A DNA stretch of 53,574 nucleotides, counting the filler, from Stramenopiles sp. TOSAG23-2 (Eukaryota), in assembly GCA_900128395.1 (NCBI GenBank). It is 4 parts of 4 records of this genome, joined end to end, with 100 filler letters (N's around TTAATTAATTAA, not from the genome) between each part and the next. Parts side by side here need not be neighbours in the genome. Positions count along the whole stretch, not along the records: positions 1 to 13,365 come from LT649806.1; 3 more parts are not named here. The stretch is one strand, 5' to 3'. Below, piece after piece: positions 275-50,157 of the stretch. The translations under genes and the position numbers were made by a program. The notes below the pieces were generated by a model. It ran no database searches. It saw nothing but the letters and a program-made list of their open reading frames with translations, and had not been told where the DNA came from. Numbering within the stretch: position 1 is the first letter of the stretch; each line of letters begins with the position of its first letter.

Positions 275-3200
275 ATGATACTCTTTACAATGTTTCTAGT
301 CATATTTTTAAAAGGGATTTTTGTGACAGTTGCTTACCATAAGAATGAATGTTATGAGTTCGTTGGGTGCCCCGATAAACTGGAAGCAGTTCGCGGTGGA
401 ATGCAATTTTTAGATTGGAAAGGTAACTCTGTCTCTCAATTGCATATAAGCCAACCTGAATTTAACGAAAATGATAGCAAGTGGAAAATAGAGTTAAATA
501 CTGAAAATTTCCCTATGGAATTTCTAGTTGTAAAAAGTGATATTAAAGAATCGCTTGCTATGAAAATACAAAAAGATCGTCCTGCACATAAACCTGTAAA
601 CCCAATGTTAACACAAACAGCCGATATCACTCTCCCCGCTGCATATGTAGGCAAGTTTGCACAATCTTCAGACGCAACTGAAATATCATTTTTAAGATCG
701 AGAGGTACACGAAATTATCCAACCAATACAGAACAAAATGATGTATTAGGTTATATAACATTTAAATCATTCGCATCGAATAATTGGTATGCTGCTTCCC
801 AAATGTATGGAACGTTAGAGCAAGATTTGCCTGATATTGGAAAATCTGGTGGAAAACTAACATTTGCAACGACAGAATTAAATACTGCATATACGCATGA
901 ATTAATTGATAGAATGACAATAGATAGCAAAGGTCGTATGTTTCATCGATCTACGGCGGAAACAGGTATTGTTCATAATATTTTTGCTAATAATGTAAAC
1001 ACTGGTGTACCATTTAAAATACAAATGTCAAATTTAAGTTCTGGTATTGGTGTACATATAACAACTGAAATCGTAAAAGAAGATCCAGATAATGTGACTA
1101 CTTTTTTAGACGGGGGAACATTAAATGTCAGTACACATATCGTAGCAAAATATAAATCAGGAGATTTAATTGAAATAAACAATTGTACAAATATAGAAAA
1201 TAATGGAAAATATATTATTCGTTCTAGCCTTGGATCGACAATTCATTTGCAATCATTAGACGGGATTCCACCAACGAATTTATATGGCCCTGATACGACA
1301 TGCAATATACGGAAACCTGAAAGTATTCCAAAAATGGTTACACGTATAAGAAAGAAACAAATACAATCATTATCATCAAATGGAACTGTTGTAGTTTTTT
1401 TGGATAGTGACATTGATGATTATAATATCGGTGATTTAGTCCATTTTAATAATTGTCGTTTTTCAGAAAATAATGGTAAATATATTATTGAATATAAATT
1501 TACTGCTGTAAAGGTATTACGTTTAATTACAAGCGATGGGCAAGCAATAACAAATTTAATTGATGAACCATCGTCTACATGTCAAATAAGCCGACCACCG
1601 GGTACGGTAGTTAATATAGATGCACGTTCGCAAAGGCACGGGACATTGGTAGATATAAATGCAAATAATATGTTAGATGGTGAAATTGTATATATAAAAT
1701 CAAATAATTTACAAAATGAAGGAAAAGCAATTCATATTGAGTCTACCTCGCCTTTGTCCAATCATATCGTAAAATTAGATGCATATGAAAGTACATTTGG
1801 AAATGTTGTAGCTGTAAATGGAAGAGATATGAAAAACGGAAGTCTTGTGCATATAACATCAAATTTAGGTAATGCTTTAACAGGCTCTCCAACATCGTTT
1901 AGAATAGTTAATATTAATAACAGTGATACATCTACTACTGTTGTTGAACTGGAAAATTATAACAACAATTTTGAAACCGGCGATAAAGTACGAATAGTAG
2001 GAATAGGTGGCGATGACGACAGTACTAGTATGCACGAATTAAACAATAAAATATACACAATTTCACGAAATACTAATTCTACAAAGATTGAATTGGATGG
2101 CATAGATTCTTCTGGCTATACTGCCTACGATAATTCTATATCGTCTCGTGGTATTGTCACTCGTGTAGGTGGAAAACTATTGCACGTTCAAGGCGATTTT
2201 GAAACAGATGGGACGTTAGTAGATATCAGCGGTGTTGATTTAGTTGATGGAACAGCTTTAAAGATTACTGGTGGTGCACACATGGAGGAAGGTAATTTAA
2301 TAAGCTTACAAACATCTTCTAAAGATTTAGTAAATGGTGCATTGAGTTTAGTAGCAAATTCAGTGGAAACGGGAAGAATTATCAAACTTCATGGTAACAG
2401 TTTAACGACAGGAAAAATTATAGACATAGTTTCGACAACATCTGGCATGACATCTGATGGCAAAATAATCAATATCGATGTTACCGCAGCAACATCAGGT
2501 ACAATTATCGATATGAAAGCACCTGCATTGACATTAGGTACAATGATGGATATATCTGCCAAAGCATTAACGGAAGGTAAAGTAATCGATATAACTGATA
2601 ATGAAGATCTTACTACAGGACATTTACTTCATATAAAAACAATATCAGCTACAGCAGAAAAACCAATATTTATCGAATACGATAGTATGAATGTAGGAAC
2701 AGGTATAAAAATGGATGTACCAGCATTGAGCACTGGACATGGTATGGTAATTGATAGTCTTAATGGAAATGATTTATTAAATGATGGTTCAGGAGTATAC
2801 GGCACCGGTGGATCATTATTGACGCTAAACGGTACATCACAAACTGCAGGTACATTATTAGATATTGATGCCACTGCTTTAACAACCGGACGAGCTATAC
2901 GAGTCAAATCTGGGAATGTATCAAGTGGGGCGTTGCTGGATTTATTCACAAATAGTACTGCAGCTGGAAATACTAATGGACTTGTACGATTAACGGCAAA
3001 TAGTATTACCACTGGGGTCGGTATGAAAATTAGCGCTGCAGCACTAACTACTGGGAAAGCATTGCATATTACTTCTGGTAGTGGCACAGCATTGGCTGCA
3101 GGAGGGAGTTTGCTGCGGGTACAAGGTGATTCCGTGACAGCTGGTAATATTGTAGATATTAGTGCCACAGCAATGGAAACCGGGACGTTATTAAAACTTA

Positions 3201-6200
3201 CAAGCGGGAGCGAATTGACTAGTGGGAGATTGCTGCATTTACAAACAAGTTCAACGTTTAGTTCTTCCGATACTCTAGAAGGTGCAATATTTGATGTAAC
3301 AGCAAATGCTGTACAAACTGATCGCGTAGTGAGAATTAGCAGCAACAGCGTTAAAAGTGGAGCCGCACTTGAAATTGTTGCAACTGGCAACGATGCTACA
3401 ATGACTGGAGACGGACGTGTGATTGATATCCAAGCTGCAGAACAAACAACAGGGAAACTTTTAAAAATTGATGGATCAGCGCTGACAGACGGAATTGGAT
3501 TGTATATAAAAGGAGGGAATTTAACTACTGGATCCTTATTGCATTTACATAGTACATCTGCTGCATCACAAAATGGCATAATGCGTATTGATGCTACACT
3601 CATGACAACTAAAAAAGTTGTAACCGTAAATGCACCGGATGTAACATCCGGTACTGTAATAGATATTACAGCAGCAGAGAATAGCAATGGTAATATTTTC
3701 AGTGGCAAGCTCATAAACATAGTAGCAGGCGCTCAAGCAAATGCTGGGGGTACTATTGTAGATATTTCAGCAAATAGTCTAACAACTGGTATAATTTTAG
3801 ATATTACAAAGCATAAACTACAAGGTGCTGGGAGAGCAATTAAATTATCTGGAGGCTCTGGTGCAGAATTTCAAGCTGATGGTTTAGCTGAAAGCGGCAA
3901 AGCGCTTTACATACATTCAAATTCAGATAACTCGGATTACAAAAGTGTTGTTGAAATCGATAATAAAAATTCCGCATCTACAAAAACCCAGACTTTACAT
4001 CTCACTCACAGTGCAACTAGTGACTCGAATACCACCCTTGGACAGAAACCAGCAACAGCTTTAGCGATTGATTCATTACTCCCAGAAGCTGTATTTATAC
4101 GCGTTAGTAGTGATACCAATGCTGAAAATGGGGCGCAAATAACATTATCAAGAGATAGACAGGGAAGCGATTTGGCGCAGCCCGCAACAACAGTTGCAAA
4201 TGGCGATGTAATAGGACGTATCCATTTCGACGCATTTACGTCTGCTGTTAGACAAACTGTTGGAGCAATTGAATCTCGTGTTGATGATAGCTCATTAAGT
4301 AGCACTTCACTAGGTAGTAAATTGATTTTTAAAACTTCCCAAGTGAGTACAAACGCGACTCTAAAAACACGACTGGTCCTACCCAATGATCATAAGATGA
4401 TTCTGGGAGAGGGAGATGATGAATTTCACATTAAGAAAGCCATTAGAGCAACGGATGGGCATGGTACAGATTTAATTATTACAGGCCAAGCTGCTAGGGG
4501 TACAAATAATAATAATAATAATGGTGGCGATGTTATTGTTAGGGTAGGTTCACATACTGGTTCTGGTTTAAAAGGTGAAATGAAAGTTCAAAACGATGAT
4601 GGCACTGTTGATATATTAACAATAGATGAAGCCAAAACAACGTTAAAAACACCAACTATCGACGTTTCTGATGGTACAAAAACTATAACAATTGTCGACT
4701 CACAGGCAAGCTCGCTTCAAATAGGAACATCTAGTAATCCCGATATATTAAAAATCGATACATCTGATACCGTTGAAAAAGTTATTATAGATGGAAATTT
4801 TGATATAACCGAAAATTTGCTTGTTACAAAAGAATCTATTTTTACTAAGCAAGTAGTTATTTTAACAAAGAAAGTTCTTTCTAAAAACGATGTAGATGTA
4901 GAATTGTGTTACAAAACAGGAAATGGAAATGATGCATTTACCGATACTATTAAACTTGGTGGAACGGGTTCCACTGTATATATTTATCAAACCGATATAG
5001 GTGGGGGCTTCAGTTCTACCGGTGCAACAATAGAAGATGACGGTGATATGAAGACAAATGGTATCTTGACAGCAGACAGTGCAGTAAAATTAAATTATAA
5101 TGACAATACCAAAAGTGTTTCCTTGACCAAATCAAATGGAAAAATTTTCTATGGTGGGGCGCCTCCGATGAACATGCATATTGCTACAAACATGCCTAGT
5201 GTCGATTTAGATGGTAATGGGTTTTGCAACAATTGTAAAGTTATAAAGATTGGCACAAACACGGGTAATTCTGGTGCCAATATAATGATACTAGGGGGAT
5301 TGCATGTAGTGCAAGTGCATGGTGTGACGACAATTAACAGTATAGACACCAATGGTGTTTACACCGTTGCGAATGGCACGGTTTTTGCAAAGAATGAAAC
5401 GGTAACGGTATCAGGTTGCGATGCGGATGGAAACAATGGGGAGTTTCTAGTTTCTAGCATATATGGTGATAATATCACTTTGCATGACGTAAATGATAAC
5501 GCCATCACGACAATTGCTACTACTACTAATTGCAAAATCTCCACTATTACCGTTGTTTCTACAAACGGGAGTACATTTGAAGGCATGATGGGAATGAAAA
5601 TTGAAACATCTACTATTAATTGTTTAACAACAGCTTGTTCTGTACCAGATAACGGCGACATCGAATTTGGACTGGGAAAACATATTAATGGCAACATATT
5701 AAACTTGGACAATCAAAATGAATCAGATGATCATAGCATTTTCACTGGGGTTGTTGGAAATTTCGATGTCAACATCGGTACAGAAACTTGTACAATAAAT
5801 GTAACAGGTGACTTACAAATTGGCGGTGGATATGGTAGTGAATTAGGGTCTACTTTTGCAACAAATGGGGACGGATCATTGGATGGAAAACTTACTGTTG
5901 ATGGAACTTCTACCCTAACAGGCAGTGTCACATTTGGTGGAAATATAATAAGTGATCAACCAAATGAAGCTAAAACTATATTTAATACGATTACGTCTCA
6001 GACAATTTCTGTTGGTGCCGTTACCGGTAGCACCACATATATCATTTTAAATGCTATTAAGATTGGTGGGGAAGGTGCCGGTTATACTGGAAACACTGGA
6101 GCAACAATAGAAAAATCTGGTAATTTTTTCACAGATGGAAACATCATAGTCAAAAGTAATGTGGATCTAGACGGAAGTGCAAATTTTGATGTTGGTGGTA

Positions 6201-9200
6201 ATATTCTTCGTAATACACAAAGTGATTCAGAAATATTTACAGCCGTGACAAATGTCAATCATGATATCACTATTTTGCCAACTAACAGCACGAAACAAGT
6301 TAGTATGCCATTTAAGTTGCAAACTATCACCCAAACAGGAGGAGGTACAGCACATGTAGAATTTACATCATCTGGAGTACAAACAGAAAAAAAGCTTCAT
6401 GTAGATGTTCCTTTGTTTTATAATACAACTTTTGACGGAACGGATAATTCAAGTCACCCATCAGCGAACGCGTTAGATGGCAATTATGCCAATAAATGGA
6501 AAATAACCAGTTGCAATAGTTGCGGTCTTATCATGACAGGTCTAACAACTGATAGTGTTGTTACTAGTGTACGAGTAAAATGTGTTACTGTCTCTGACAA
6601 CAAGTGGCCTACATCCCTTGCAATTTATGGATCAGGTGATACAATCGTACCAAATGACGGTGGAACATGGACACAAATTGGGGGAGGGGACATTGCCATA
6701 CCTGATTTTACAAGTAACGATCAAGTCCAAACGGTAATATTTAGTAATTCTAATGTGTACAAGCATTATAAAATTGTATTTAAAACTATAAAATTAGGAA
6801 CTACAATGGAAATACGTGAAATTGCCTTACTTACGAATGTTGGAGACTTTAATGAAGATGTTATATTAAATGGTAATATAAGAGCAAGTACGTTAAAGAC
6901 CATCAACGGAAATGCAGTAAATACGAAAACTTTTGATCGCCATTTGAATTTTGCTAATACCCAAATAAAGATAAGCGGCACTGGTGGTGTAAAAGTCGAT
7001 AACTTGCATGTACATGCAAATGGAGACGAAAGCAACCCAACAAAGATTGAATCCGATGGAACATTTACTCTTGCTACAGATGGTAGCTTTCAAGTTGGCA
7101 CTTCGCCTCCAACTGCAGGGACCTCTGGTGATTTGGCATATGATAATGGAAAGCACATATCTGGTAATCCTCCTGGTACAAATGTAATTGCAACATTGCA
7201 AACGACTGGTGCTTCGGGCAGAGATCGTCAAATCTTCGTTACTACTACGAGCCAAGCGATTGATATTGGTGCAATTTCGAGTGGGTCTAACACGGTTAAA
7301 ACCCAAGCCTTTTCAGTTCAAAATGGTGCAACTACCATCTTAAACAACGGTGTTGTTACGTCAGGTGGAACATTGACGGTAAATAATGATGTTACGATTG
7401 GCACGCAAGGCGCCCCAAAATCAATTACAATAAATAACGGACATATTAAAGCATTAAGTAATTCTCAAATTACAGGTGGGCTGTTTACCAACTCTGGGAC
7501 AAATAACATTGCGATCGGTAACATCGATGGCAAAGTTAAGTTTCAGCATGATTTTAAAGTTGGAGATACCAATAATGATGGTACGACCGACGCCTTTACT
7601 GCTGTATTTAATACTGAATATACTTTGACTGCGACTGGCGATTGTACAATAAAAGGTTCAAATAGTGGTGGCGCAACAATTATTGCAAAATCTAGTACTG
7701 TTGGTACTGCTAAAGAAATATTTCGAAATGTTGCCAATACAAATATTGAGATCGGGAAAAGTGGCAGTGCAAATAGTATAGTAGAAATGGGGAATATAAA
7801 TTTGGTATCTGCGATGGAGGTTAAAGCTGGTACTATTGTTTTTAAAAAACATTTTGATTTCACATTGGCTGCAGGATCCGATGGACAAATTAAGTACTTT
7901 GTATATACAACCGGTGTTGTAACCATTACTGATATAACAACTAATGGTGTTTATACTGTGATAAATGGTACAGGTGATGTTGATAAATTCGCGGTAGGTG
8001 ATATGGTAACAGTTGCAGGTTGTACTGCTGCTGGAAATAATGGAGATTTCAAAATAAATACTAAAGGTACGGATACACTTGAATTAGTAACATCATTAGA
8101 TGCTGCAATCACAACAACAGCAGTTACTAGTGGAACTGGGGGATGTACAATATCAAAACGATATATAGATATCACCAACAACGATGGATCTACATGGTTG
8201 GCACGTTTGTCACATGAGTTTAAAATTTGCAAATTAATGTATGTTACAGATAAATGGGTTAAAATTAAACCAAGGCAAGTGTTGTATTTTTTACAAATTG
8301 AGCATCAAAATATTGATTACAATGTAGTAAAAAGTGGAACTTCGACTAATTTTGGTGACAACACGTTAGTTCCACCATTATCCGATTATACATTTGATGT
8401 ATTGCTTCCAGCATCCTCGAAAACAGATACTAGATATACAGGAGGTACTGATGTATTTATTTTTAATATTAAATTTAAATCAAAAGTTAAAAATGACTTT
8501 TTATATGCAAAAGTTACTTCACCATCTGGTGGAAAATTTACTGATAAACAAGTTGTCTCTGACAGCGATACTACAACAACATTATCTTCAGACGAAGGAA
8601 ATAATAGACTAGTTATAAAACCAGGTGATTATGCGGATAACATTGTGCAAATATTTCATAGTATTGATGGTACATTTAGTATTCGTATAAGAAAACCATG
8701 TGCAAAGGGATATTATTTTGATAGTAACGAATGCATCATTTGTGCCGCAGGCCAATATAGCACAACAGAACCTTTTCAAACTAGTACTTGTATAAATTGC
8801 CCAGCGGGTACATTCAACAATTACGGTTCGTACGCACCTTATCATGATAGCACATCTGATTGTACAACGTGTTATAGTGGAAAATACCAACCTTATACCG
8901 GACGGACTAGTTGCTATAATTGTCCTGCTGGTAGTTATCGAACAACTGATTCAACAAATGATTTAAAACCTTGGAATGGTAATAATAGATTTTATATGGA
9001 TTCAATCTCCGATTGTACGATATGTGGAGCAGGCAAATATAGTGAAGCTAATGGACAAACATCCGAAAGCACGTGTACCGATTGCCCAGTGGGAACATTC
9101 AACAATCAACCAAGCAATTATTGGTATCATTATACTGGACATGATAGCACATCTGATTGCACAACGTGTAATAGTGGAGAATACCAAGACGGAACCGGAC

Positions 9201-10574
9201 AAACTAGTTGCAAAGATTGTCCTGCTGGTAGATATCGAACAACTGATTCAACAAATGATAATAAAAATTGGAATGGTAATGCCAATGGAAATAATGATGG
9301 TATGAAAGCAGAAGCCGATTGTACGATATGTGGTGCAGGCAAATATAGTGAAGCTACGAAAGCAAATGCCGAAAGCACGTGTATCAATTGCCCAGCTGGT
9401 CGATACGGTGTAAATAATGCGAATACTGTTGGTGAACATGATCAATTATCTGATTGTGCGATATGTGGCGCAGGTAAATATAGTGAAGCTGTAGGAGCAC
9501 AAACATCAGCTACTTGTAGTGATTGCCCAGCTGGTACAATTGGTGTAAATAATAATAATGTTGTAGGTGATCATGATCAAGAAGCTGATTGCACAACGTG
9601 TAATAGTGGAGAATACCAAGACGGAACCGGACAAACTAGTTGCAAAGATTGTCCTGCTGGTAGATATCGAACAACTGATTCAACAAATGATAATAAAGAT
9701 TGGAATGGTAATGCCAATGGAAATAATGATGGTATGAATGCACTCGACGATTGTACGATATGTGCAGCTGGTAGTATCACAGATACTGGAACAGCTGATG
9801 GTGCTACAACCTGTACGCCGTGTGTTGCCGGTAAATTTTCCGCTAGTTCTAATGTGGCATCTTGCTCTGATTGTGCAGCTGGTAGTATCACAAATACTGG
9901 AACAGCTAATGGTGCTACAACCTGTACGCCGTGTGTTGCCGGTAAATTTTCCACTAGTTCTAATGTGGCACAATGCGATAATTGTGTTGCTGGTACATAT
10001 AACGATTTGAATACTGGAATAGCTACATTTTTATAACGATTTGAATACTGGAATAGCTACATGTAAAACATGCACAGCTACCGAGAGCAATAAATATGTA
10101 TCTACTGCTTGTACAACTACAGTCAACACAGTGTTCACATCATGTGGTACCTGTAATGCTGGTCAATATATATCAACGGCATGTGCGGTTGGTGATGCAA
10201 CCACGGTAGGTTCCGTTGCAATCTGCACGGCGTGTGTCGCCGGTAAATTTTCCGCTAGTTCTAATGTGAACTCTTGCTCTGATTGTAATGCTGGTAGTAT
10301 CACAAATACGGGAACAGCTAATGGTGCAACAAGCTGCACGGCGTGTGTTGCCGGTAAATTTTCCACTAGTTCTAATGTGGCATCTTGCGATAATTGTGTT
10401 GCTGGTACATATAACGATTTGAATACTGGAATAGCTACATGTAAAATATGTGGCGCAAATGAATGGCAAAATGGAGTCGGTGAAACTTCTTGCAAAAGTT
10501 GTCCAGGTGCAAAAGTTACAAACGGTAACGCTGCTGCAGACCATGATGAGAATAGTGATTGCACCAATCAATAG
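275..10574 (+). CDS. Giant (~3,420 aa) secreted adhesin/fibre-like protein: signal peptide, phage tail-fibre-like motifs, five E1-FCCH-like beta modules, beta-solenoid repeats, discoidin (F5/8C)-like domain, C-terminal Cys-rich ephrin-receptor/TNFR-like repeats
   Basis: ORF 260..10036 has its first ATG at 275 (MILFTMFLVIFLKGIFVTVA). It continues in ORF 10041..10574 across a 34-bp insertion that duplicates tataacgatttgaatactggaatagctacat (9998-10028 and 10032-10062). Motifs: FLRSRGT..PT...NDVLGYITF (~685-770); GD.V.I..C...NNG.(Y/F) at ~1150, 1420, 1970, 5380, 7990; G..L.I....LTTG repeats ~2170-3900; SANALDGNYANKW ~6460; C..C.AG.Y/F repeats 8700-10570. No introns needed. Confidence 0.85.
8700..10560 (+). 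repeat. Intragenic Cys-rich module repeats, some nearly identical at DNA level
   Basis: 9153-9306 matches 9585-9738 with one mismatch seen. 111-bp units start at ~9761 and ~9872 and recur at ~10225-10440. Confidence 0.9.
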
Positions 10575-10941
10575 CAAGTTTGATCATTTTTGTTTGGTGT
10601 TCCAAAATGCATTATCATAAATGATGCTGGTCCCTTGTGCTTATTTATAGCTGTTGTGCAATTGGATCCAACACGCATTGCGGTAGCAGAGATGGCTACA
10701 ATGTTGGCAGTGGCATCCATATATAAATATTGTAAAGAGTAGCCCGATGCTGGACCATAAGGTATTTACGTGGCGCGTGACAGCAACCATGTGCATATTC
10801 ATAAATGGCCCGACGTAGGTCCTCTTTATAAATATTACATACAAAATACTTGCACCATACATACATAAATAAAATATAAAACCCGTAAAAAAACATCAAA
10901 CAAATACAAACCACCCATGATATAAACACGGACGATCATAT

Positions 10942-13940: not shown

Positions 13941-15231
13941 ATGAAGTGCTTCCCTCTTAATATTATTTGTGTGCTTCTGTTTGTTATTAGTAGTATAACT
14001 AATAACGTACAAGGAGAACACACACACACACACACACAATGTCAACAATACAAAGAATTATCTGGTGACTGTGGCGGGAACGATATTAAATGGATTAGAG
14101 ATAAAAGTACAACTGAATGTATCAACGAATGCAATAAAGATGCAAATTGTGCTGGATTTACATATGCTCACGGAAATGTAGATGGCAGAGTGGGTAGCAA
14201 TGGTTGTTGTTTAAAAAGTAAAAGCTGTGGTACACCTGCCGGTGTTTGTGATCCAACTCAACAGCACTGTTTCCACGCCAAACCAACAAGAGAAGAAGAT
14301 TGCGAGACTAGAAATAATGTTGATGACAATCCATCTACGGGCTATTTTCTAGGAGAGTATGGTACAAATTTTGAAGATGCAAAACAATATTGTGAGGAAA
14401 GAGGTTCGATGCTTGCAATTATAAAAAATGAATATAGTCAGCACGAAGCTGCTGAAATATGTGGAACACATTCGTGTTGGATTGGATTAGTTGAGCATGG
14501 AGATCGAGATGGGACATGGAAATGGTTAGATGGCGAGACACTTTCATATGATAATTGGGAAGATGGAGAACCAAATAACTACGGTGGGAAAGATGAAAAA
14601 AATGGCATGATGAATTGTTGCTCAGAGGAAGCAGACCTTATCAAAGGTGGTAAATGGGTCGATGTGAAAAAGGAAGATTTACATTCGTCTCGTCCTCTTT
14701 GCGGTATAGGTGGTGAGAAGCCTCATGATGACGGCGGTGTTGGGGGCTTAATTGCTTTAATAATCTTGATTATGTTATGCGGTGGTGTTATAACCTGTAT
14801 TATTTGGTGTTGTGCCAAACAATCAAATGGATTCAACCAACCACAAAATAATGTTATTGGAGTCACATCGCCACCACATATGGTTCAGCAAGTACAAATG
14901 GTTCCGCAACAGCGTGTCCAGAAAGTTACTGCTGTGCAGCAGAATGGTCAACCTATACAAGGCCAAGGCTTTGTAATGCAAAATGGTCAACCTATGCAAG
15001 GTCAAGGCTTTGTAATGAGTCAACCTATACAAGGTCAAGGCTCAACCTATGCAAGGTCAAGGCTTTGTAATGAGTCAACCTATACAAGGTCAAGGCTACA
15101 TTACTCAACAACCTGGAATGAATAACTTTAACAACCGACCATCAATAATGATGAATCAAAGTGCTACAGCTCCAGAACCAGTTGTTGTACAAGCTACATA
15201 TACGAATTCGGTCAATCGTCAAAATATATGA
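13941..15231 (+). CDS. Type I membrane receptor: signal peptide, PAN/apple-like domain, C-type lectin domain, TM helix, Gln-rich repeat tail
   Basis: PAN-like ECINECNKDANCAGFTY..CCLKS; CTLD NFEDAKQYCEERGSMLA..CWIGL..WKWLDG..NWEDGEPNN with EPN motif; TM GLIALIILIMLCGGVITCIIWCC. A 55-bp duplication (14987-15041 and 15042-15096) shifts the frame into ORF 15049..15231. Confidence 0.9.
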
Positions 15232-15866: not shown

Positions 15867-17316
15867 ATGTCGAAAAAAAAAGTATTGCCATGTGCAATTA
15901 CATTATTAAAAGAACGTTTTTTATTATCTGCAATGACAAATGAGAATTTAGGAAATATATTAAATAGAATGGCATGTGATTATAGAGACGATGAAATAGC
16001 GCAAGCGACAACTCCACCACCATCTGTATATGTAGGTTTTGATCCGACGGCAAGTTCTTTGCATGTTGGAAATCTTGTATCGGTACGTGCGTTAGAAATT
16101 TTTCAAGCATCTGGTTTTCGTCCAATAGCTTTAATAGGTGGTGCAACTGGATTAATTGGAGATCCAAGTGGGAAAAGTACAGATCGTATATTATTAAATG
16201 TAAAACAAGTGGAAGAAAATCAGTTTGGCATTGAAAAATCATTAAAGCAAGTATTAGATTTCAACGGAAACAATAATCAACAGATCAAAATGGTAAATAA
16301 TATAGACTGGTATGATAATATGTCAGCTTTTGAATTTGTTCGTGACATTGGTCAACATTTTCGATTGTCTCAAATGTTATCAAAAGATAGTGTTCGAAAT
16401 CGTTTAGAATCAGATGTTGGGATAAGTTTCACGGAATTTTCATATCAAATGTTTCAAGCCCATGATTTTTATCATTTATATAACAATGAAAATTGTATAT
16501 TGCAAATTGGTGGTAGTGATCAATGGGGTAATATAGTTGCTGGATGTGAATTAATACGTAGACGTTTGGGTAATAATGATGATAATAATAATAATAATAA
16601 TAATGCATATGGTATGACGGTCCCATTGATGACCACTGCAAGTGGTGAAAAAATTAGGAAAATCTGCTGGAAATGCTATATGGATTGATCCAGATAAAAC
16701 GTCTCCATATGATTTTTATCAATATTTCATGCAAATTAAAGATGAAGATATTGTAGGCTTAATACCATTAATGGGCGTACATGTAAATATGAATGGTGAA
16801 GGTGAATATATCCATGATGATTATGATAATGAATTTTCATTAAATAAAGCAAAAGATGTAATAAAATTACATCAACAAGATCCTGGGAAAAGATATGGTC
16901 AAACATTTTTAGCTGAATCTATGACTACATGGGTACATGGTGAAGAAGTATGTCAAAGCGTACGCAAATTATCAAAAACTTTATTTCAAAAAAAGAAAAA
17001 AAGTAGTAATAATAGTAACGATATCAAAGACATGTTAAAAATGGCATTAAAAAATGGCAATGTTACCAAAGTAGAATTAAGGAATGATGACCTATCATCA
17101 ATAACAATTATAGAATTAAGTATGAAATGTAATGCGATTAAAAGCAAAGGTGAAGGTAAACGTTTGGTAAAGAATGGTGGATTATATGTAAACGATGTAC
17201 GAGTTGAAAATATTAATGAAATATTTGATATGGAAAAACATATTGTAGACGATCAATTTGTAATAGTACGTGTTGGTAGAAAATCACAATACATTATTCA
17301 AATATCGTTGTTGTGA
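15867..17316 (+). CDS. YARS2: Tyrosyl-tRNA synthetase, bacterial/mitochondrial type (one frameshift)
   Basis: YVGFDPTASSLHVGN (HIGH motif), QIGGSDQWGNI, KLGKSAGNAIW (KMSKS motif), C-terminal S4 domain (SKGEGKRLVKNGGLYVND). An extra A in the run at ~16648-16653 splits ORFs 15867..16688 and 16642..17316. Confidence 0.95.
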
Positions 17317-17667: not shown

Positions 17668-18522
17668 GACCCACCGGCGATAAGATCCGTACGATTTGGG
17701 TAAATACCTTAATATTAATAGGGGGTATCCCTTGATAATCCCGATATTTTTGTATACTAAGTACCTATGATTTAGTACATAATGTGTTTTACTACCCTTT
17801 TCCTGTACTCAAAGTCTACGGAAATTAGATCCGTACGATTTGGGTAAATACCTTAATATTAATAGGGGGTATCCCTTGATAATCCCGATATTTTTGTATA
17901 CTAAGTACCTATGATTTAGTACATAATGTGTTTTACTACCCTTTTCCTGTACTCAAAGTCTACGGAAATTTAGTAGACACTGTAAAATGGAACCAAAAAA
18001 TTTCTTCTGCTAAATAAATCCACTTCCTGGTGTCGTCTGAACCTGAGGTTCGAGTATAGAAAAGCTCTTATTCCAGGTTATGCAGTGTGTAGGTCGGAAA
18101 AACTGAAAATGGAAAAAATTTTATTTCACAAGGATGCGCATGGACCACCAGTTCCAAAAAAAAAAATATTTTTTTCTTGTGACTTCCCAAAACTTTTTCA
18201 TTGCTCGTGTGATTGCATTTTGTCTCGCCTTGTCTCAGATTGCATAACCTGGCATGTTAAAAATCATCTCGTGAAATTTTTTTGGACAAAAATAAAATTT
18301 ACGTAAAAAATTTAGCAGAAGAAATTTTTTGGTTATTTTTTACAGTATTGGATAGGTGCTGGTAATCTTCTTGGGTCTTTGAGTACAGGAAAAGGGAGTA
18401 AAACACATGTTATACTAAATAATAGGTAATTAGTATACGAAAATATCGGTAATATCAAGGGATACCCCCTATTAATATTAAGGTATTTACCCAAATCGTA
18501 CGGATCTTATCGCCGGTGGGTC
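17668..18522. mobile_element. Non-autonomous DNA transposon (MITE, MULE-like) with long terminal inverted repeats
   Basis: gacccaccggcgataagatccgtacgatttgggtaaatacc... at 17668 is the reverse complement of the sequence ending at 18522; imperfect inverted match extends ~200 bp. atatgatat lies near both flanks (possible 9-bp TSD with AT slippage). A 146-bp duplication sits in the left TIR (17682 and 17828). No transposase. Confidence 0.85.
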
Positions 18523-33473: not shown

Positions 33474-34352
33474 GATTTCCATTCTAGGTAATATAGTTGA
33501 TAAACCAAGTGGGACAATCATTCATATATCTATCTGATCGTTGTCTCTGTATATTTATCTATTTATTGATAACAATCCTATTGTAGTCCATACTGTTTGA
33601 ATATATTCTAATAGTTTTGTGCGCGCGTGTGTGTATATATATATATTACGGTGCGGATTATTATTATTAAAAATAATATATATATACATTGACGAAATCC
33701 CTGATTTCCATTTTAGGTAATATAGTTGATAAACCAAGTAGGACAAATCATTCTTCTATCTATCTAATCGTCGCTGTATATCTATCTATTTATTGATAAC
33801 AATCCTATTGTAGTCCATACTGTTTGAATATAGTTTTGTGCGCGCGTGTGTGTATATATATATATTACGGTGCGGATTATTATTATTAAAAATAATATAT
33901 ATATACATTGACGAAATCCCTGATTTCCATTTTAGGTAATATAGTTGATAAACCAAGTAGGACAAATCATTCTTCTATCTATCTAATCGTCGCTGTATAT
34001 CTATCTATTTATTGATAACAATCCTATTGTAGTCCATACTGTTTGAATATAGTTTTGTGCGCGCGTGTGTGTATATATATATATTACGGTGCGGATTATT
34101 ATTATTAAAAATAATATATATATACATTGACGAAATCCCTGATTTCCATTTTAGGTAATATAGTTGATAAACCAAGTAGGACAAATCATTCTTCTATCTA
34201 TCTGATCGTTGTCGCTGTATATCTATCTATTTATTGATAACAATCATATTGTAGTCCATACTGTTTGAATATAGTTTTGTGCGCGCGTGTATAGATATAT
34301 ATATATATTACGGTGCGGATTATTATTATTAAAAATAATATATATACATTGA
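33474..34352. repeat. Tandem array, 4 copies of a ~219-bp unit
   Basis: Units start with gatttccatt at 33474, 33703, 33922 and 34141. Inner copies are near-identical and outer copies slightly diverged. Confidence 0.95.
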
Positions 34353-34416
34353 AGAAAAATTTATTAAGTAAAAGGTATAATTCTTCATATAAATAAATAT
34401 AATAATAATAATATCA

Positions 34417-42757: not shown

Positions 42758-44215
42758 TCATCTTATTGTTCCCGCTGTCCGTCGTGTTCTTCTTCCATAT
42801 TTCATATACAACACAATGATAATCGTAATGATAAATATGATAACAACTATAACAGCAAAGATTCTACTTAATTCTTGAAGTCCACTTGTACAAAGTAATA
42901 ATGAACCTAATAATAAAAACAACAATATCAATCGTCGAAATGCAATTGGATCAATGTATTTACTTAAATATTTATTCGCAATCAATGCAGCGAATATGCC
43001 ACATACCATCGTAGTGAAGTATATTGGTAATAATTCTTCTTTATATCTACCAGATGCCCATAAAATATATACAATACGTGGAATAATGTAAATCTACATG
43101 TTGACAAAGTGTATTATGTTAGTTTTTTAAAATGGACATATATGTAAAATACAAAGTTGTATGAAGTAGTTAGAATTCTCTTGAAATACATACCGATGTC
43201 ATATGGGATGCACATGCACGCCATATATTTTTATCAACATCACGATTATATGTTAACCATACCATAAATGGTGGACCTTTATATATGATACGTAAATATA
43301 TATATTGTAAATTGTTAGAAAGCAAGAAATGCATTGTATAAAGAGGATGTAAACATATGCAATAGAGATATACACATTTTGACAAGGATGCAAGTATATG
43401 CAAATGCAATACATATTGTGAGAAAAAGATGTAAACCTACCAGCTGTACCAAATAAACCACCAAGGAAACCAGCAAATGATGATGTTATTAATAAAATTA
43501 ATATTGATTTCCAATCATTAATTTCAAATGTATCTACATTGTTATTAATGAGAACAGAAGATGTGATTTTTGTAACATCCACATTGTTATTTGAATCATC
43601 CAGATTATCTTTAATTTCTATTTCAATGTTATTGTTTCTAGTATTGCCACCATCCTTGTCTATAGATAGTTTACCTTCTTTCATTTCAATAACTCGTTCT
43701 TCATCTTCTTCTTCTTCTTCTTTATCTAGTACACCATCTTTTTTTGTTGTATTATTAGTATTTACAATGTTATTTACAATGTTATTTTTAATGTTCTGTC
43801 GTTTATTTTTTTCTTCTTCTTCTTCTTGTTTTTCATGTTGTCGTTGATCATACATCATTTTAAACCATTGTAATAAAAACAATATACCTAAACTACGTTT
43901 TAACCATGGTGATTTTACATATAATAAGACTTGTATCCCTATTAACATGAATGGTACAAATCCAATGATCATAATAAATACCATTTTCCAATAAACATAT
44001 TTATGTAATAAATATGCTTGATATGGATTCACAGCAAGTCCAGCAATGGATAAATATAATAAACCATCGACAATATCGCCATTGCCATAAAATAAACTGA
44101 TGAAGTACCATGATATTTGAAATATAATCGCACTGCCAAAACCAGTCAACGCCCATGCGGTATACGATATGTAACCGATGATACCAGTAATAATTCCAGT
44201 GAGTATTAACGACAT
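42758..44215 (-). CDS. TauE/SafE (TSUP) family membrane transporter, 3 exons
   Basis: ALTGFGSAII and AGFLGGLFGTAGPPFMVW motifs. Exons 44215-43441, 43276-43194 and 43093-42758; GT-AG introns 43277-43440 and 43094-43193 keep the frame. Confidence 0.9.
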
Positions 44216-45559
44216 TTTATAATTTAATTATATAGAATAACTGCCACAAAAATGTTTCAAAAAGTATACGATATGTAACCGATGATACCAGTAATAATTC
44301 CAGTGAGTATTAACGACATTTTATAATTTAATTATATAGAATAACTGCCACAAAAATGTTTCAAAAAGTAATTATTAAAAAATGAAAAATGAAAAATGAT
44401 GAAAAAAAAAACTTTTCAAAAATCAAACAAGCATAGATACACACCGTACAAATTTCAATGAAATCCAATTCAAATACCACAATTAATAATCACACACACA
44501 TATACGTCCTTTTTCAAACAACTCTCGCACTATATACACATTGCTTTCTATATATCCGATATATATATTCCACCCTGTCTGTCCTGTTGGGGGTGGTCGA
44601 ATGGCCACTTGTACTTATATGTATACTAATTACTACTGATTACCTATATAATACGATGTAATGCTATGTGATGCTACTGGAAAGACCCATTTTCCAATAG
44701 TGTATCGATATAATTTATTGATGTATTTTAGCCAATGCTGTGTGTGTGGTACGGCCAATTTTGAACTTAGGATGGAATAGCATTACTTGTGGTGTGTACA
44801 TGCTAGCAAATTGTAGTGAGTGCTGTGTCATGCTATCTCGTATTTTCTGCCCCCTATAGGACTTCTTGGTAGTGTACCATGTACCAGGTACCAGGTAAGA
44901 CTGTCAGATATGATATTGGTTAAGGGATATCTTGTCTTATATATAACTTATATACTTTTAAGTACTCTCTGTCGTATATGACACATATATATATCCATAA
45001 TATATACATATATATCAGATATGATATTGGTTAAGGGATATCTTGTCTTATATATAACTTATATACTTTTAAGTACTCTCTGTCGTATATGACACATATA
45101 TATATCCATAATATATACATATATATCTACTATATCTGTTGTCGTTGCTCCGTTTACTGGTTGTCGTTCTTCTGCAATATTGTGTGCCTGCTGTCTGTGA
45201 TCTTTAAGGCTTCGTCTCCTTGCGTATGGTTAGCTTGTTCACAAGACAGAGTAAAAATCTATACTATAAAATCCAAAAATTCTCAAAAAATGTTTTGTCT
45301 AAAAAAATGAAAAATCAAAATATCCGGAAATATATATATATATATAATGTATGAATACATGTTGAGGGGATCATGTGATATATATATATATATATAAATA
45401 TCATTTGATCGTTAGTATAAGTCTGTTGTCACCACTCCATTTCATACGGTTTGATTATTGTTATACATTTGGTGTTTCACAATTTTTCTTTTTATTGTCT
45501 ATTTTTTTTTGTGGTCGATACATATTATTGAATCATCCTCATCATTAATATTAATTAAA

Positions 45560-49700: not shown

Positions 49701-50157
49701 TTGTTTTGACAATATCACGTTGTATATTTGCAATAAATGTATCAGCACGATTTAATGAAGCCTCGTCTGGAAAATGTTCATTTAAATATGCAATTGGATC
49801 AAAATCTTCTTGATCCAATGGATCATCAGAGGGGCACACTTCACGCATGGATTCTTGCAAGTCATCGCTAAATAATGAAAAATCCATACTTTGTCCAATC
49901 ACATCATCAATTTCTTTAATAGCTTTTTCAACACCATTAATATGTTTTGTTAATTTTTGTAATACTGGGTGAACCTCTGGATCATCTTCTGTTGTCCTAT
50001 CATATATTTTATTTATATTTTTTGGTTGTGTTGGATTGATGGATGGTGGTATTGTAAAGGTGTCATCGTCGTCGTCGTTGGTGGTGGTGGTGGTGGTGGT
50101 GGTGGTGTTAGTATCATCAATGATATCAATATCGTTAGGTGATGTTGTATCTGTCAT
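46755..50157 (-). CDS. VPS53: Vacuolar protein sorting 53 (GARP/EARP complex), 1012 aa, 3 exons
   Basis: DPLDQEDFDPIAYLNEHFPDEASL, DIKLLDNAKTNLQTSITTLKRLHMLVTAVDQL, IVNTSEYC, GAQQLLLDT. Exons 50157-48911, 48661-47474 and 47358-46755 total 3039 nt; both introns are GT-AG. Confidence 0.96.

What the first reader, a model, noticed from the sequence alone, without database searches (positions are those of the whole stretch)
275..10574. 10-kb intronless gene fusing phage tail-fibre-like modules to eukaryotic Cys-rich repeats behind a signal peptide
Seen: one ~3,420-aa reading frame carrying (i) two copies of an F.RSRG...PT.V..GD.LG.I.F...G.L.F.T motif (~685-935, ~4140-4380) plus G.DL.I.G....G.N..GGD.....G..TG.G, (ii) five GD.V.I.GC...NNG.F/Y modules, (iii) a long G..L.I....LTTG solenoid, (iv) a discoidin-like domain and (v) ~600 aa of C..C.AG.Y repeats. 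Knowledge, from motif recall: (i)-(iii) are typical of tailed-phage fibre/structural proteins and giant bacterial surface proteins, including 'E1 FCCH-domain' phage proteins; (v) is typical of protist surface proteins. Inference: a virus-derived fibre recruited as a secreted protist adhesin (e.g. prey capture), or the fibre gene of an integrated eukaryotic virus. I do not recognise this architecture as a described family.
Basis: partly seen in the sequence, partly recalled or inferred. Interest (0 to 1): 0.85.

Follow-up and report, generated by a model that had tools for sequence, protein, structure and literature searches.

The report
Phage-fibre-like giant protist secreted protein
A marine protist's nuclear gene encodes a roughly 3,400-residue secreted protein whose long shaft is built from modules shared with bacteriophage tail-fibre and structural proteins and joined to a eukaryote-type cysteine-rich stalk, so it may be a virus-derived fibre that a bacteria-eating cell now uses itself.

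Summary
The gene is real. It runs from ATG 275 to stop 10574. One frame break is caused by an exact 34-bp tandem duplication at 9998-10062. The contig is eukaryotic (Vps53, C-type lectin/PAN, ankyrin), and the gene's codon usage matches its neighbours'.

Four N-terminal module types have relatives in phage or viral contigs:
- A beta-helix domain (two copies) scores as well on a cyanophage fibre protein as on the protein's own second copy. It also matches solved Bdellovibrio MAT prey-recognition fibres (E 0.0016).
- A 'GxDL' module matches a viral-contig protein at E 2e-11.
- 'DEAK' units are 52% identical over 85 aa to another viral-contig protein (E 8e-17), and a 181-aa stretch is predicted to form an intertwined trimer.
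- An FCCH-like barrel matches a viral-contig protein at E 6e-7.

The "solenoid" is a 13-residue repeat with no viral relative found. The C-terminus is Ephrin_rec_like repeats.

Homologues occur in MAST-4 stramenopiles and in marine eukaryote data. I found no description of the family in print.

Best reading: a native, horizontally acquired, mosaic trimeric extracellular fibre, probably an adhesin. Prey capture is inference only. An integrated virus or a contaminant is unlikely.

The parts
275..10574 (+). Whole gene: ATG 275 to TAG 10572-10574, no intron needed. One frame break (stop at 10034-10036, continuation in the +1 frame from about 10041).
275..337 (+). Putative signal peptide (aa 1-21, hydrophobic core)
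   Evidence: Read from the translation; no predictor was run
338..664 (+). N-terminal domain (aa 22-130) with no family match. From aa 42 on it is colinear with the MAST-4 orthologue P0005.
665..946 (+).
   Evidence: 31.5 bits on a profile built from 14 copy-2-type sequences, decoy maximum 12.7. 27% identity over 93 aa to cyanophage protein P0121. phrog_2248 tail protein at E 0.004-0.008.
1082..1324 (+). Small FCCH-like barrel module 1 (aa 270-350)
1352..1609 (+). Small FCCH-like barrel module 2 (aa 360-445)
1892..2194 (+). Small FCCH-like barrel module 3 (aa 540-640; lacks the Cys pair)
   Evidence: E1_FCCH 3.6e-4 at 21 bits, below the cut-off of 29.5. phrog_584 major tail protein 4.1e-4. 37% identity over 82 aa to the IMG/VR ORF L013:309-2606, E 6e-7.
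2207..4024 (+).
   Evidence: Lag-13 autocorrelation. 29 unnamed Atlas clusters at 0.96. No viral relative found.
4058..4429 (+). Fibre beta-helix domain, copy 2 (aa 1262-1385)
   Evidence: Homologues, for example P0022 at 5.7e-17. The profile scores 30.7 bits on cyanophage P0121. The A9 profile matches PDB 8ol4 (Bdellovibrio Bd2439 fibre) at E 0.0016.
4427..4624 (+). 'GxDL' module (my label; aa 1385-1450)
   Evidence: 28% identity over 232 aa to the IMG/VR ORF L011:2226-6440, E 2e-11. That ORF matches phrog_697 structural protein at 4.4e-17.
4982..5107 (+). Partial 'DEAK' unit (my label; aa 1570-1611)
   Evidence: 16 bits, i-E 1.7e-4
5321..5569 (+). Small FCCH-like barrel module 4 (aa 1683-1765)
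5804..6301 (+). Two tandem 'DEAK' units (aa 1844-1925 and 1926-2009)
   Evidence: 52% identity over 85 aa to the IMG/VR ORF L003:5626-7119, E 8e-17. Unit profile 105 and 25 bits. Three copies of aa 1830-2010 predicted as an intertwined trimer.
6443..6775 (+). Discoidin-like (F5/8 type C-like) domain (aa 2057-2167)
7547..7786 (+). Weak further 'DEAK'-like unit (aa 2425-2504)
   Evidence: 8.9 bits, i-E 0.028; tentative
7922..8194 (+). Small FCCH-like barrel module 5 (aa 2550-2640)
   Evidence: phrog_584 at E 0.16 only
8687..10574 (+). Cys-rich Ephrin_rec_like / TNFR-like repeats (aa 2805 to the end, across the break)
   Evidence: Ephrin_rec_like 2.2e-28 and 4.6e-10; TNFR_ELAPOR1_6th 1e-14. PDB Mst1 mastigoneme 8tx1 at 2.7e-6.
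9998..10062 (.). Exact 34-bp tandem duplication that shifts the frame

Best explanation
This is a native nuclear gene of a marine heterotrophic protist. The protist is probably a stramenopile related to, but not the same as, MAST-4. The gene encodes a secreted, mosaic fibre protein of about 3,420 aa.

Shown here:
- The contig is eukaryotic and the gene shares its codon usage.
- The protein consists of a signal-peptide-like start, an N-terminal ~660 aa conserved in MAST-4, a long beta-rich shaft, a discoidin-like domain and a C-terminal Ephrin_rec_like stalk of about 600 aa.
- At least four shaft module types are homologous to modules of tailed-phage fibre or structural proteins. These are the beta-helix domain (two copies), 'GxDL', the tandem 'DEAK' units, and an FCCH-like barrel.

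Inferred:
- The chains assemble as an intertwined homotrimer, like phage fibres. This is predicted for one 181-aa segment. A 13-residue repeat is also too short for a single-chain solenoid coil.
- The phage modules were acquired by horizontal transfer in an ancestor of this lineage and then fused to eukaryotic Cys-rich repeats.
- The product is an extracellular adhesive fibre whose lectin-like and barrel domains bind surface glycans. The most plausible target is bacterial prey, by analogy with phage receptor-binding fibres and the mosaic adhesive trimer (MAT) fibres of the predatory bacterium Bdellovibrio.
For: Eukaryotic, native context:
- Vps53, tyrosyl-tRNA synthetase, C-type lectin+PAN and ankyrin genes lie on the same contig.
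- The best named Vps53 hits are stramenopiles at about 41% identity.
- GC3 is 0.229, against 0.16-0.28 in 10 neighbouring ORFs, and synonymous codon use is the same.

Family:
- P0002 (EukProt) is 86% identical. It was the only hit among 2,515 long candidates.
- P0005 (EukProt, named Stramenopile-MAST_4) is colinear with aa 42-660 at 40% identity, E 6e-135.
- Other members come from marine eukaryote transcript catalogues and long ENA contigs.

Phage homology:
- MAST-4 paralogue P0022 matches phrog_9942 (2.7e-14) and phrog_18345 (4.6e-12), both tail fibre protein. It is 46-47% identical over ~80 aa to 7 Synechococcus phage records.
- A profile of 14 eukaryotic copy-2 sequences scores 30.7 and 23.4 bits on those phage proteins, against 31.5 bits on the window's own copy 1. 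The decoy maximum was 12.7 bits over 1,200 shuffles.
- DEAK units: 8 of 111 pattern hits in IMG/VR are relatives. The best is 52% identical over 85 aa, E 8e-17, in an ORF matching phrog_697 structural protein. Another lies on a 176-kb contig that also carries PhoH.
- GxDL: E 2e-11 to a 1,404-aa IMG/VR ORF matching phrog_697 at 4.4e-17.
- FCCH-like module 3: E 6e-7 to an IMG/VR ORF.
- The DEAK pattern scan found no relative in 185,579 prokaryote genomes (0 of 81 pattern hits).

Solved relatives: the motif-(i) profile matches Bdellovibrio MAT fibres 8ol4/8onf (Bd2439) at E 0.0016 and 8oml at 0.05. The match falls in the region the authors describe as the trimeric beta-helix (PMC10769870, section 14).

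Trimer:
- Three copies of aa 1830-2010 scored 0.84, with the best of 3 controls at 0.00.
- The mark was reached by 21 of 30 proteins solved as pairs of one chain and 0 of 23 solved as single chains. These counts hold only roughly, because calibration used two copies.
- On eukaryotes the mark was reached by 17 of 29, but by only 1 of the 7 with no older solved relative, so the pass may come from memory. It was reached by 0 of 30 single chains.
- The runs agree in at least 96% of contacts, and the partner's pLDDT is at least 83.
- The same region as a monomer reached only pLDDT ~50-75.

RNA: contigs from a polyA and an oligo-dT marine RNA library match the 3' part and the 3' flank with 0-1 differences. 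This shows presence in RNA libraries, not proof of transcription.
Against: - The window protein's own scores on PHROG, Pfam and NCBIfam models for the N-terminal 2,800 aa are all below threshold.
- tblastn of aa 100-2742 against 50,697 phage records found nothing.
- Demonstrated phage-like modules cover only about 500-700 of roughly 2,800 shaft residues.
- Neither the 13-residue repeat nor the first 130 aa has any viral relative that I found.
- No Peptidase_S74 chaperone domain, transmembrane segment or hydrophobic C-terminal tail is seen, so folding control and attachment to the cell are unexplained.
- The trimer prediction covers 181 aa and may reflect remembered phage fibres.
- Monomer models were poor (mean pLDDT 39.4 and 46.7), so no fold comparison was possible.
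- The unit tree is unresolved (16 of 23 inner branches open), so neither the direction nor the number of transfers is shown.
- If the 34-bp duplication is real, this copy is truncated by about 180 aa.
- Nothing here tests localisation, glycan binding or prey binding.
- Only 1 related locus turned up in the JGI metagenome scan.
Confidence: 0.55

Rival explanations
1. The molecule is the same phage-derived extracellular trimeric fibre, but its role is purely structural. It could be a component of flagellar hairs (mastigoneme-like), a cell coat, scales or a cyst wall, with no part in prey recognition.
For: The only solved relative of the C-terminal repeats is the Chlamydomonas mastigoneme protein Mst1 (8tx1, E 2.7e-6). 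Stramenopiles carry flagellar hairs (established knowledge). No membrane anchor is seen. The shaft is very long and repetitive.
Against: The Mst1 match is confined to the widespread Ephrin_rec_like repeats. The HMMER search of 1.84 billion representatives with aa 1250-2449 returned no hit that I could assign to another stramenopile. Of the 20 hits whose source I looked up, the 3 named ones were 2 EukProt entries (one labelled MAST-4) and a Phycisphaerae MAG, and the rest were unnamed marine metagenome or transcript records. A core hair protein would be expected across stramenopiles. The discoidin-like domain and the homology to receptor-binding fibres and to MAT adhesins favour binding.
Confidence: 0.3
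2. The gene is the fibre gene of a eukaryotic virus or virus-like element integrated at the left end of the contig.
For: The gene sits 274 bp from the window's left end, so its upstream context is unseen. Overall GC is higher than in the neighbours (0.36-0.40 against about 0.30). The modules are virus-like.
Against: GC3 and synonymous codon use equal those of the cellular neighbours, and the higher GC lies in codon position 2. The downstream genes are cellular. The viral relatives found are phage-type: a PhoH gene, phrog_697 matches, and cyanophage genes beside gp23 or a tail-collar protein. The protein has a signal peptide and eukaryotic Cys-rich repeats. A colinear orthologue at 40% identity exists in MAST-4.
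Confidence: 0.05
3. It is an artefact. Either bacterial or phage DNA was mis-assembled or co-binned with protist DNA, or the phage likeness is only convergent, low-complexity, beta-strand-rich composition.
For: The window holds six exact two-copy tandem duplications, which suggests assembly problems. The shaft is rich in G, T and S. BLAST against phages with the low-complexity filter on found nothing.
Against: A single ORF joins the phage-like modules to the Ephrin_rec_like repeats, in the window and also in the independent EukProt proteins P0002 and P0005. Codon usage matches the neighbours. Composition-adjusted BLASTP gives 8e-17 at 52% identity. Shuffled decoys reach at most 12.7 bits against 30.7. 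Independent Logan contigs of two DNA runs and two RNA runs carry parts of the 3' region.
Confidence: 0.04

Closest known systems
Bdellovibrio bacteriovorus MAT (mosaic adhesive trimer) fibre proteins (Caulton et al. 2024, PMC10769870; I read the abstract, sections 14 and 16, and search passages)
   Same: Both are a secreted, multi-gene, mosaic family in a predator of bacteria. Both have a signal peptide followed by a conserved N-terminal part and then a long fibre. The beta-helix domain profile matches the solved Bd2439 and Bd1334 fibres (E 0.0016 and 0.05). Both use lectin-type domains. A trimeric intertwined shaft is predicted here for one segment only.
   Different: The host here is a eukaryote and the protein is about three times longer. 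The C-terminus here is ~600 aa of Ephrin_rec_like repeats, not a compact tip. The discoidin-like domain is internal. A 13-residue repeat, FCCH-like barrels, and GxDL and DEAK modules are present. Homology of the N-terminal domains could not be tested. Surface display and prey binding are shown for MAT but not here.
Tailed-phage fibre and structural proteins of marine phages (phrog_9942, phrog_18345, phrog_697; cyanophage proteins annotated 'chaperone of endosialidase')
   Same: The beta-helix domain, GxDL, DEAK units and FCCH-like barrel are shared at 27-52% identity. The DEAK units are arranged in tandem in both.
   Different: There is no Peptidase_S74 domain, whereas the phage proteins P0121 and P0122 have one. 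The window protein itself does not reach significance on these PHROGs. It is encoded in a eukaryotic nucleus, has a signal peptide, and is fused to Cys-rich repeats.
MYRF (myelin regulatory factor) triple-beta-helix plus ICA domain (PMC3742443, PMC8326128; search listing and start of abstracts only)
   Same: It is a precedent for phage tailspike or fibre-derived trimerising modules in a eukaryotic protein.
   Different: MYRF keeps the S74/ICA self-cleaving domain and is an ER-membrane transcription factor. Here S74 is absent and the protein is a secreted giant with many more phage-type modules.
Chlamydomonas mastigoneme protein Mst1 (PDB 8tx1)
   Same: Arrays of Ephrin_rec_like Cys-rich repeats in an extracellular filament protein.
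   Different: The match is limited to aa 2807-3244. Nothing in the N-terminal 2,800 aa matches Mst1.

Membership tests
Ephrin_rec_like (PF07699) repeat proteins | Match to the Pfam model above its gathering score | tested here: met
   98.2 bits against a cut-off of 23.1, with 7 stretches, plus 39.6 bits after the break
F5/8 type C (discoidin, PF00754) | Match above the gathering score | tested here: inconclusive
   22.3-23.9 bits against a cut-off of 28.2. Homologue P0009 carries the family at 6.4e-13, but P0008 has no Pfam hit.
E1_FCCH (PF16190) | Match above the gathering score | tested here: not met
   21 bits against a cut-off of 29.5, for module 3 only. This is a likeness of a small barrel, not membership.
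Phage S74-type fibres / endosialidase-chaperone proteins | C-terminal Peptidase_S74 (PF13884) intramolecular chaperone domain | tested here: not met
   No PF13884 hit on the whole protein or on slices. The phage comparators do have it.
Phage S74-type fibres / endosialidase-chaperone proteins | Beta-helix fibre domain upstream of S74 | tested here: met
   The eukaryotic profile scores 30.7 and 23.4 bits on the phage proteins, with a decoy maximum of 12.7
phrog_9942 / phrog_18345 tail fibre protein | Significant match to the PHROG profile | tested here: not met
   The window protein gave none at E<=1. 2 of 18 family members scanned do match, the best being P0022 at 2.7e-14.
phrog_697 structural protein | Significant match to the PHROG profile | tested here: not met
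   No hit for the window protein. Its viral relatives L003 and L011 match at 2.2e-8 and 4.4e-17.
Bdellovibrio MAT superfamily | Trimeric beta-helix fibre domain | tested here: inconclusive
   The profile matches 8ol4 at E 0.0016, 21.5 bits. Trimerisation is predicted only, and for a different module.
Bdellovibrio MAT superfamily | Conserved beta-rich N-terminal domain of ~130 aa after the signal peptide | not tested
The window has an unassigned domain of ~110 aa in the same position.
Bdellovibrio MAT superfamily | Surface display and binding of prey glycans | not testable with these tools
   Needs experiments
Mastigoneme protein Mst1 | Homology beyond the Cys-rich repeats | tested here: not met
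   The only aligned stretch is aa 2807-3244

The most novel reading that the evidence does not exclude
A lineage of bacteria-eating marine stramenopiles captured receptor-binding fibre modules from marine phages. It built them into a family of giant trimeric surface fibres that recognise bacterial prey. That would be a eukaryotic counterpart of Bdellovibrio's MAT fibres, meaning predators in two domains of life independently reuse phage host-recognition hardware.
Probability: 0.3. Interest if true: 0.9.

Novelty: new variant of a known kind. Interest (0 to 1): 0.72.

Why it matters
How uncultured marine flagellates such as the MASTs recognise and select bacterial prey is largely unknown. A nuclear gene family assembled from phage fibre modules would be a concrete, testable candidate for prey recognition. 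It would also be a rare case of large-scale reuse of phage structural modules in a eukaryotic protein; the known precedent, MYRF, uses only the tailspike stalk and chaperone. Finally, it would parallel the phage-like adhesive fibres recently shown in the bacterial predator Bdellovibrio. Even if the role proves structural, it shows that phage fibre architecture can be secreted and combined with eukaryotic disulfide-rich repeats.

Tried and rejected
- **Whole-genome search:** no genome is held for this window.
- **Earlier findings:** none by place or by sequence.
- **Whole-protein PHROG scan:** only a 0.044 hit in the Cys repeats.
- **tblastn against 50,697 phage records:** no match with aa 100-2742, nor with P0058, P0091 or P0070. 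The low-complexity filter may contribute.
- **NCBIfam on 10 slices:** nothing meaningful.
- **RNA genes:** Rfam and tRNA scans found none.
- **ESM Atlas, leads only:** Uroviricota clusters at 0.87 for aa 100-660. For the 13-residue repeat, unnamed clusters at 0.96 and a HylP cluster at 0.80.
- **PDB profiles:** the DEAK profile gave only 4s36 at E 0.13, and the GxDL profile gave nothing.
- **IMG/VR scans:** alignments A2 and A7 were too divergent to derive patterns. The 13-residue repeat gave 0 relatives among 10 pattern hits.
- **Prokaryote genome scan with the DEAK alignment:** 0 relatives among 81 pattern hits.
- **JGI metagenome scan with the N-terminal alignment:** 1 relative among 412 pattern hits.
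- **Tree of 26 DEAK units:** P0002 was left out as a near-copy, as were units under 20 bits or covering fewer than 40 profile positions. 16 of 23 inner branches were open. One eukaryotic clade is not rejected (p-AU 0.62) but is not shown either, so no donor or direction can be inferred.
- **Read laying on 8600-10700 with 2 DNA and 2 RNA runs:** the contigs are short in the Cys repeats. No listed record bridges 10027-10032, and no 34-letter deletion row appears. The duplication is therefore neither confirmed nor refuted, and stretches without cover are not evidence.
- **Paper searches:** 'MAST-4' + 'tail fiber' returned 0 papers. Three broader searches listed nothing relevant by title or abstract. 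Supplementary tables of PMC10769870 (the MAT lists) were not seen and might name eukaryotic homologues.

Full report
**1. What is in the sequence**

The + strand carries an ORF from 260 (ATG at 275) to a TAA at 10034-10036, giving 3,253 aa (kept as P0001). It is followed at once by a 177-aa ORF, 10041-10574, in the +1 frame.

The break lies inside an exact 34-bp tandem duplication, 9998-10062. The downstream frame resumes the same Cys-repeat text. It matches the relative P0002 in 56 of its first 60 residues, and in P0002 the corresponding sequence is continuous. Without one copy the product would be about 3,421 aa.

The window holds five more exact two-copy duplications of 55-144 bp. Several lie at the edges of other ORFs, so an assembly artefact is likely. 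Logan contigs of four runs did not bridge the junction, so this stays open.

**2. Context**

The other ORFs on the contig include:
- Vps53, in three ORFs;
- a class I tyrosyl-tRNA synthetase, in two overlapping ORFs;
- a C-type lectin/PAN protein;
- ankyrin proteins, a TauE-like protein and a glyoxalase-fold protein.

Whether the ORF splits are introns or frame breaks was not resolved. The best named Vps53 relatives are stramenopiles at about 41% identity.

The gene's overall GC (0.36-0.40) exceeds that of its neighbours. Its GC3 (0.229) lies inside their range (0.16-0.28), and synonymous codon choice is the same. The gene is therefore native to this genome, not a recent insert or a contaminant.

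**3. Anatomy (aa of P0001)**

| Residues | Feature |
|---|---|
| 1-21 | Hydrophobic, signal-peptide-like (read by eye) |
| 22-130 | Unassigned domain |
| 131-224 | Beta-helix fibre domain, copy 1 |
| 270-350, 360-445, 540-640 | Three small barrel modules |
| 645-1250 | About 45 units of a 13-residue repeat |
| 1262-1385 | Beta-helix fibre domain, copy 2 |
| 1385-1450 | A module I call 'GxDL' |
| 1570-1611, 1844-1925, 1926-2009, weakly 2425-2504 | Units I call 'DEAK' |
| 1683-1765, 2550-2640 | Barrel modules 4 and 5 |
| 2057-2167 | Discoidin-like domain |
| 2805 to end | Ephrin_rec_like / TNFR-like Cys repeats (2.2e-28) |

No transmembrane or hydrophobic C-terminal segment is evident in the translation.

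**4. Relatives in eukaryotes**

Among long proteins the only relative is P0002 from EukProt, 86% identical. The N-terminal 660 aa is colinear with a EukProt protein named Stramenopile-MAST_4 (P0005; 40% identity, E 6e-135).

A full HMMER search of 1.84 billion representatives with aa 1250-2449 gave 103 hits at E<=0.001.
- Most fall on the discoidin-like domain. The best of these is a bacterial protein with repeated copies of the domain (P0008, from a Phycisphaerae MAG).
- About 20 are fragments of the same eukaryotic family. They come from marine eukaryote transcript catalogues, long ENA contigs and MAST-4.
- A handful look prokaryotic or viral. Examples are P0060, from a 0.1-0.22 µm Tara size fraction, and P0091, from the 0.22-3 µm fraction.

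**5. Test of phage affinity**

Direct scans of the window protein against PHROGs are sub-threshold: phrog_2248 tail protein at 0.004-0.008 and phrog_584 major tail protein at 4e-4. tblastn against 50,697 phage records found nothing. Four lines nevertheless connect the modules to phages.

(a) Beta-helix domain.
- MAST-4 paralogue P0022 carries a more canonical copy. It matches phrog_9942 (2.7e-14) and phrog_18345 (4.6e-12), both annotated tail fibre protein.
- That copy is 46-47% identical to proteins of 7 Synechococcus phage records.
- These phage genes sit beside the major capsid gene or a tail-collar gene and end in Peptidase_S74.
- A profile built only from 14 eukaryotic copy-2 sequences scores 30.7 and 23.4 bits on the two phage proteins. 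It scores 31.5 bits on the window's own copy 1 and 22.1 bits on P0022's canonical copy. The maximum over 1,200 shuffled decoys was 12.7 bits.

(b) DEAK units. Of 111 pattern hits in IMG/VR, 8 are relatives.
- The best is 52% identical over 85 aa, E 8e-17, in an ORF matching phrog_697 structural protein.
- Another lies on a 176-kb contig that also carries a PhoH gene.
- The units are tandem in the phage proteins too.
- The same patterns found no relative in 185,579 prokaryote genomes.

(c) GxDL. It matches a 1,404-aa IMG/VR ORF at E 2e-11, and that ORF matches phrog_697 at 4.4e-17.

(d) Barrel module 3. It matches an IMG/VR ORF at 37% identity over 82 aa, E 6e-7.

The 13-residue repeat and the first 130 aa gave no viral relative.

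**6. Solved relatives and oligomer state**

A profile of the beta-helix domain matches PDB 8ol4/8onf (E 0.0016), 8oml (0.05) and 8on4 (0.52). These are Bd2439 and Bd1334, members of the mosaic adhesive trimer (MAT) fibres of Bdellovibrio bacteriovorus.

According to PMC10769870 (abstract, sections 14 and 16, and passages read), MAT fibres:
- are displayed on the predator's surface;
- are trimeric;
- consist of a conserved N-terminal domain, a beta-helical fibre and diverse adhesive tips;
- serve prey recognition, and Bd2439 binds bacterial glycans.

The aligned part of 8ol4 overlaps the beta-helix the authors place at N850-V968.

Three copies of aa 1830-2010 were predicted as an intertwined trimer.
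- The score was 0.84, with the best of 3 controls at 0.00.
- The mark was reached by 21 of 30 proteins solved as pairs of one chain and 0 of 23 solved as single chains. These counts are only rough here, because calibration used two copies.
- On eukaryotes the mark was reached by 17 of 29, but by only 1 of the 7 with no older solved relative, so the pass may come from memory. It was reached by 0 of 30 single chains.
- The runs agree in at least 96% of contacts, and the partner's pLDDT is at least 83.

As monomers, the same and other shaft segments fold poorly, as is common for obligate trimeric fibres (my knowledge). A 13-residue period is too short for one coil of a single-chain solenoid, but it fits a chain that contributes one face per turn to a three-chain helix or spiral (inference).

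**7. Most likely mechanism**

- Shown: this is a native eukaryotic gene for a signal-peptide-bearing mosaic protein with several phage-homologous fibre modules and a Cys-rich C-terminal stalk.
- Inferred: it forms an intertwined homotrimeric extracellular fibre, with barrel and discoidin-like domains as ligand-binding knobs. The modules were acquired from marine phages before the split from MAST-4, and the family then diversified in a mosaic fashion. P0022, for example, has the same modules in another order and different C-terminal domains.
- Speculative: the fibre binds bacterial surface glycans for prey capture. This rests on the analogy with phage receptor-binding fibres and MAT fibres, and on bacterivory of MAST lineages (my knowledge).
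- Unknown: how the fibre is held on the cell and how it trimerises without an S74 chaperone.

**8. Rivals**

- A purely structural fibre (flagellar hair, coat or cyst) is the main rival (0.3).
- An integrated viral element (0.05) is disfavoured by the context and codon usage.
- An artefact or composition-driven convergence (0.04) is disfavoured by the codon usage, the independent gene models and the decoy controls.

**9. Expression**

Contigs from one polyA and one oligo-dT marine RNA library match parts of the 3' region and the 3' flank with 0-1 differences. This shows presence in RNA libraries of two studies, not proof of transcription.

**10. Novelty**

The nearest known systems are listed under Closest known systems. 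I found no paper describing phage-fibre modules in MAST or other protist surface proteins. Supplementary tables of the MAT paper were not visible and could list eukaryotic homologues.

I rate this a new variant of a known kind: phage-type trimeric fibres co-opted by a cellular organism.

Noticed in passing
window 9998-10062, 14987-15097, 17683-17970, 44160-44370, 44904-45127, 48842-48955: Six exact (100%) two-copy tandem duplications of 34-144 bp within 53.6 kb. Several abut or interrupt ORFs (the giant gene, the lectin gene, the TauE-like ORF, Vps53). This looks like a systematic assembly artefact, but it could be real.
   Followed up: partly
window 13941-15125 (+): The next annotated gene downstream encodes a PAN plus C-type lectin protein with a short Q/G-rich tandem repeat at 14939-15097. 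It is another candidate secreted carbohydrate-binding protein beside the fibre gene.
   Followed up: no
window 6443-6775 (aa 2057-2167): The nearest relatives of the discoidin-like domain are bacterial proteins with up to 7 tandem copies, such as P0008 from a Phycisphaerae MAG at 31% identity. This domain too may be of prokaryotic origin.
   Followed up: partly
P0087 (EukProt g610.t1, 656 aa): A separate eukaryotic protein with a signal-peptide-like start and three tandem copies of the same Cys-pair barrel module (GD.V.L.GC...N..F/Y). The module therefore circulates among other secreted proteins.
   Followed up: no
window 33474-34357: A 219-bp tandem repeat, 4.0 copies at 95% identity, in a region without ORFs.
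   Followed up: no
window 15867-17316 (+) and 46755-50157 (-): The tyrosyl-tRNA synthetase gene is in two overlapping ORFs and Vps53 is in three. Whether these are short introns or frame breaks like the one in the giant gene was not resolved.
   Followed up: no
L007:5371-7341 and P0060: Phage-side carriers of the DEAK unit end in a short ...RW..IY... motif followed by a compact C-terminal domain. That tip type is absent from the window protein.
   Followed up: no
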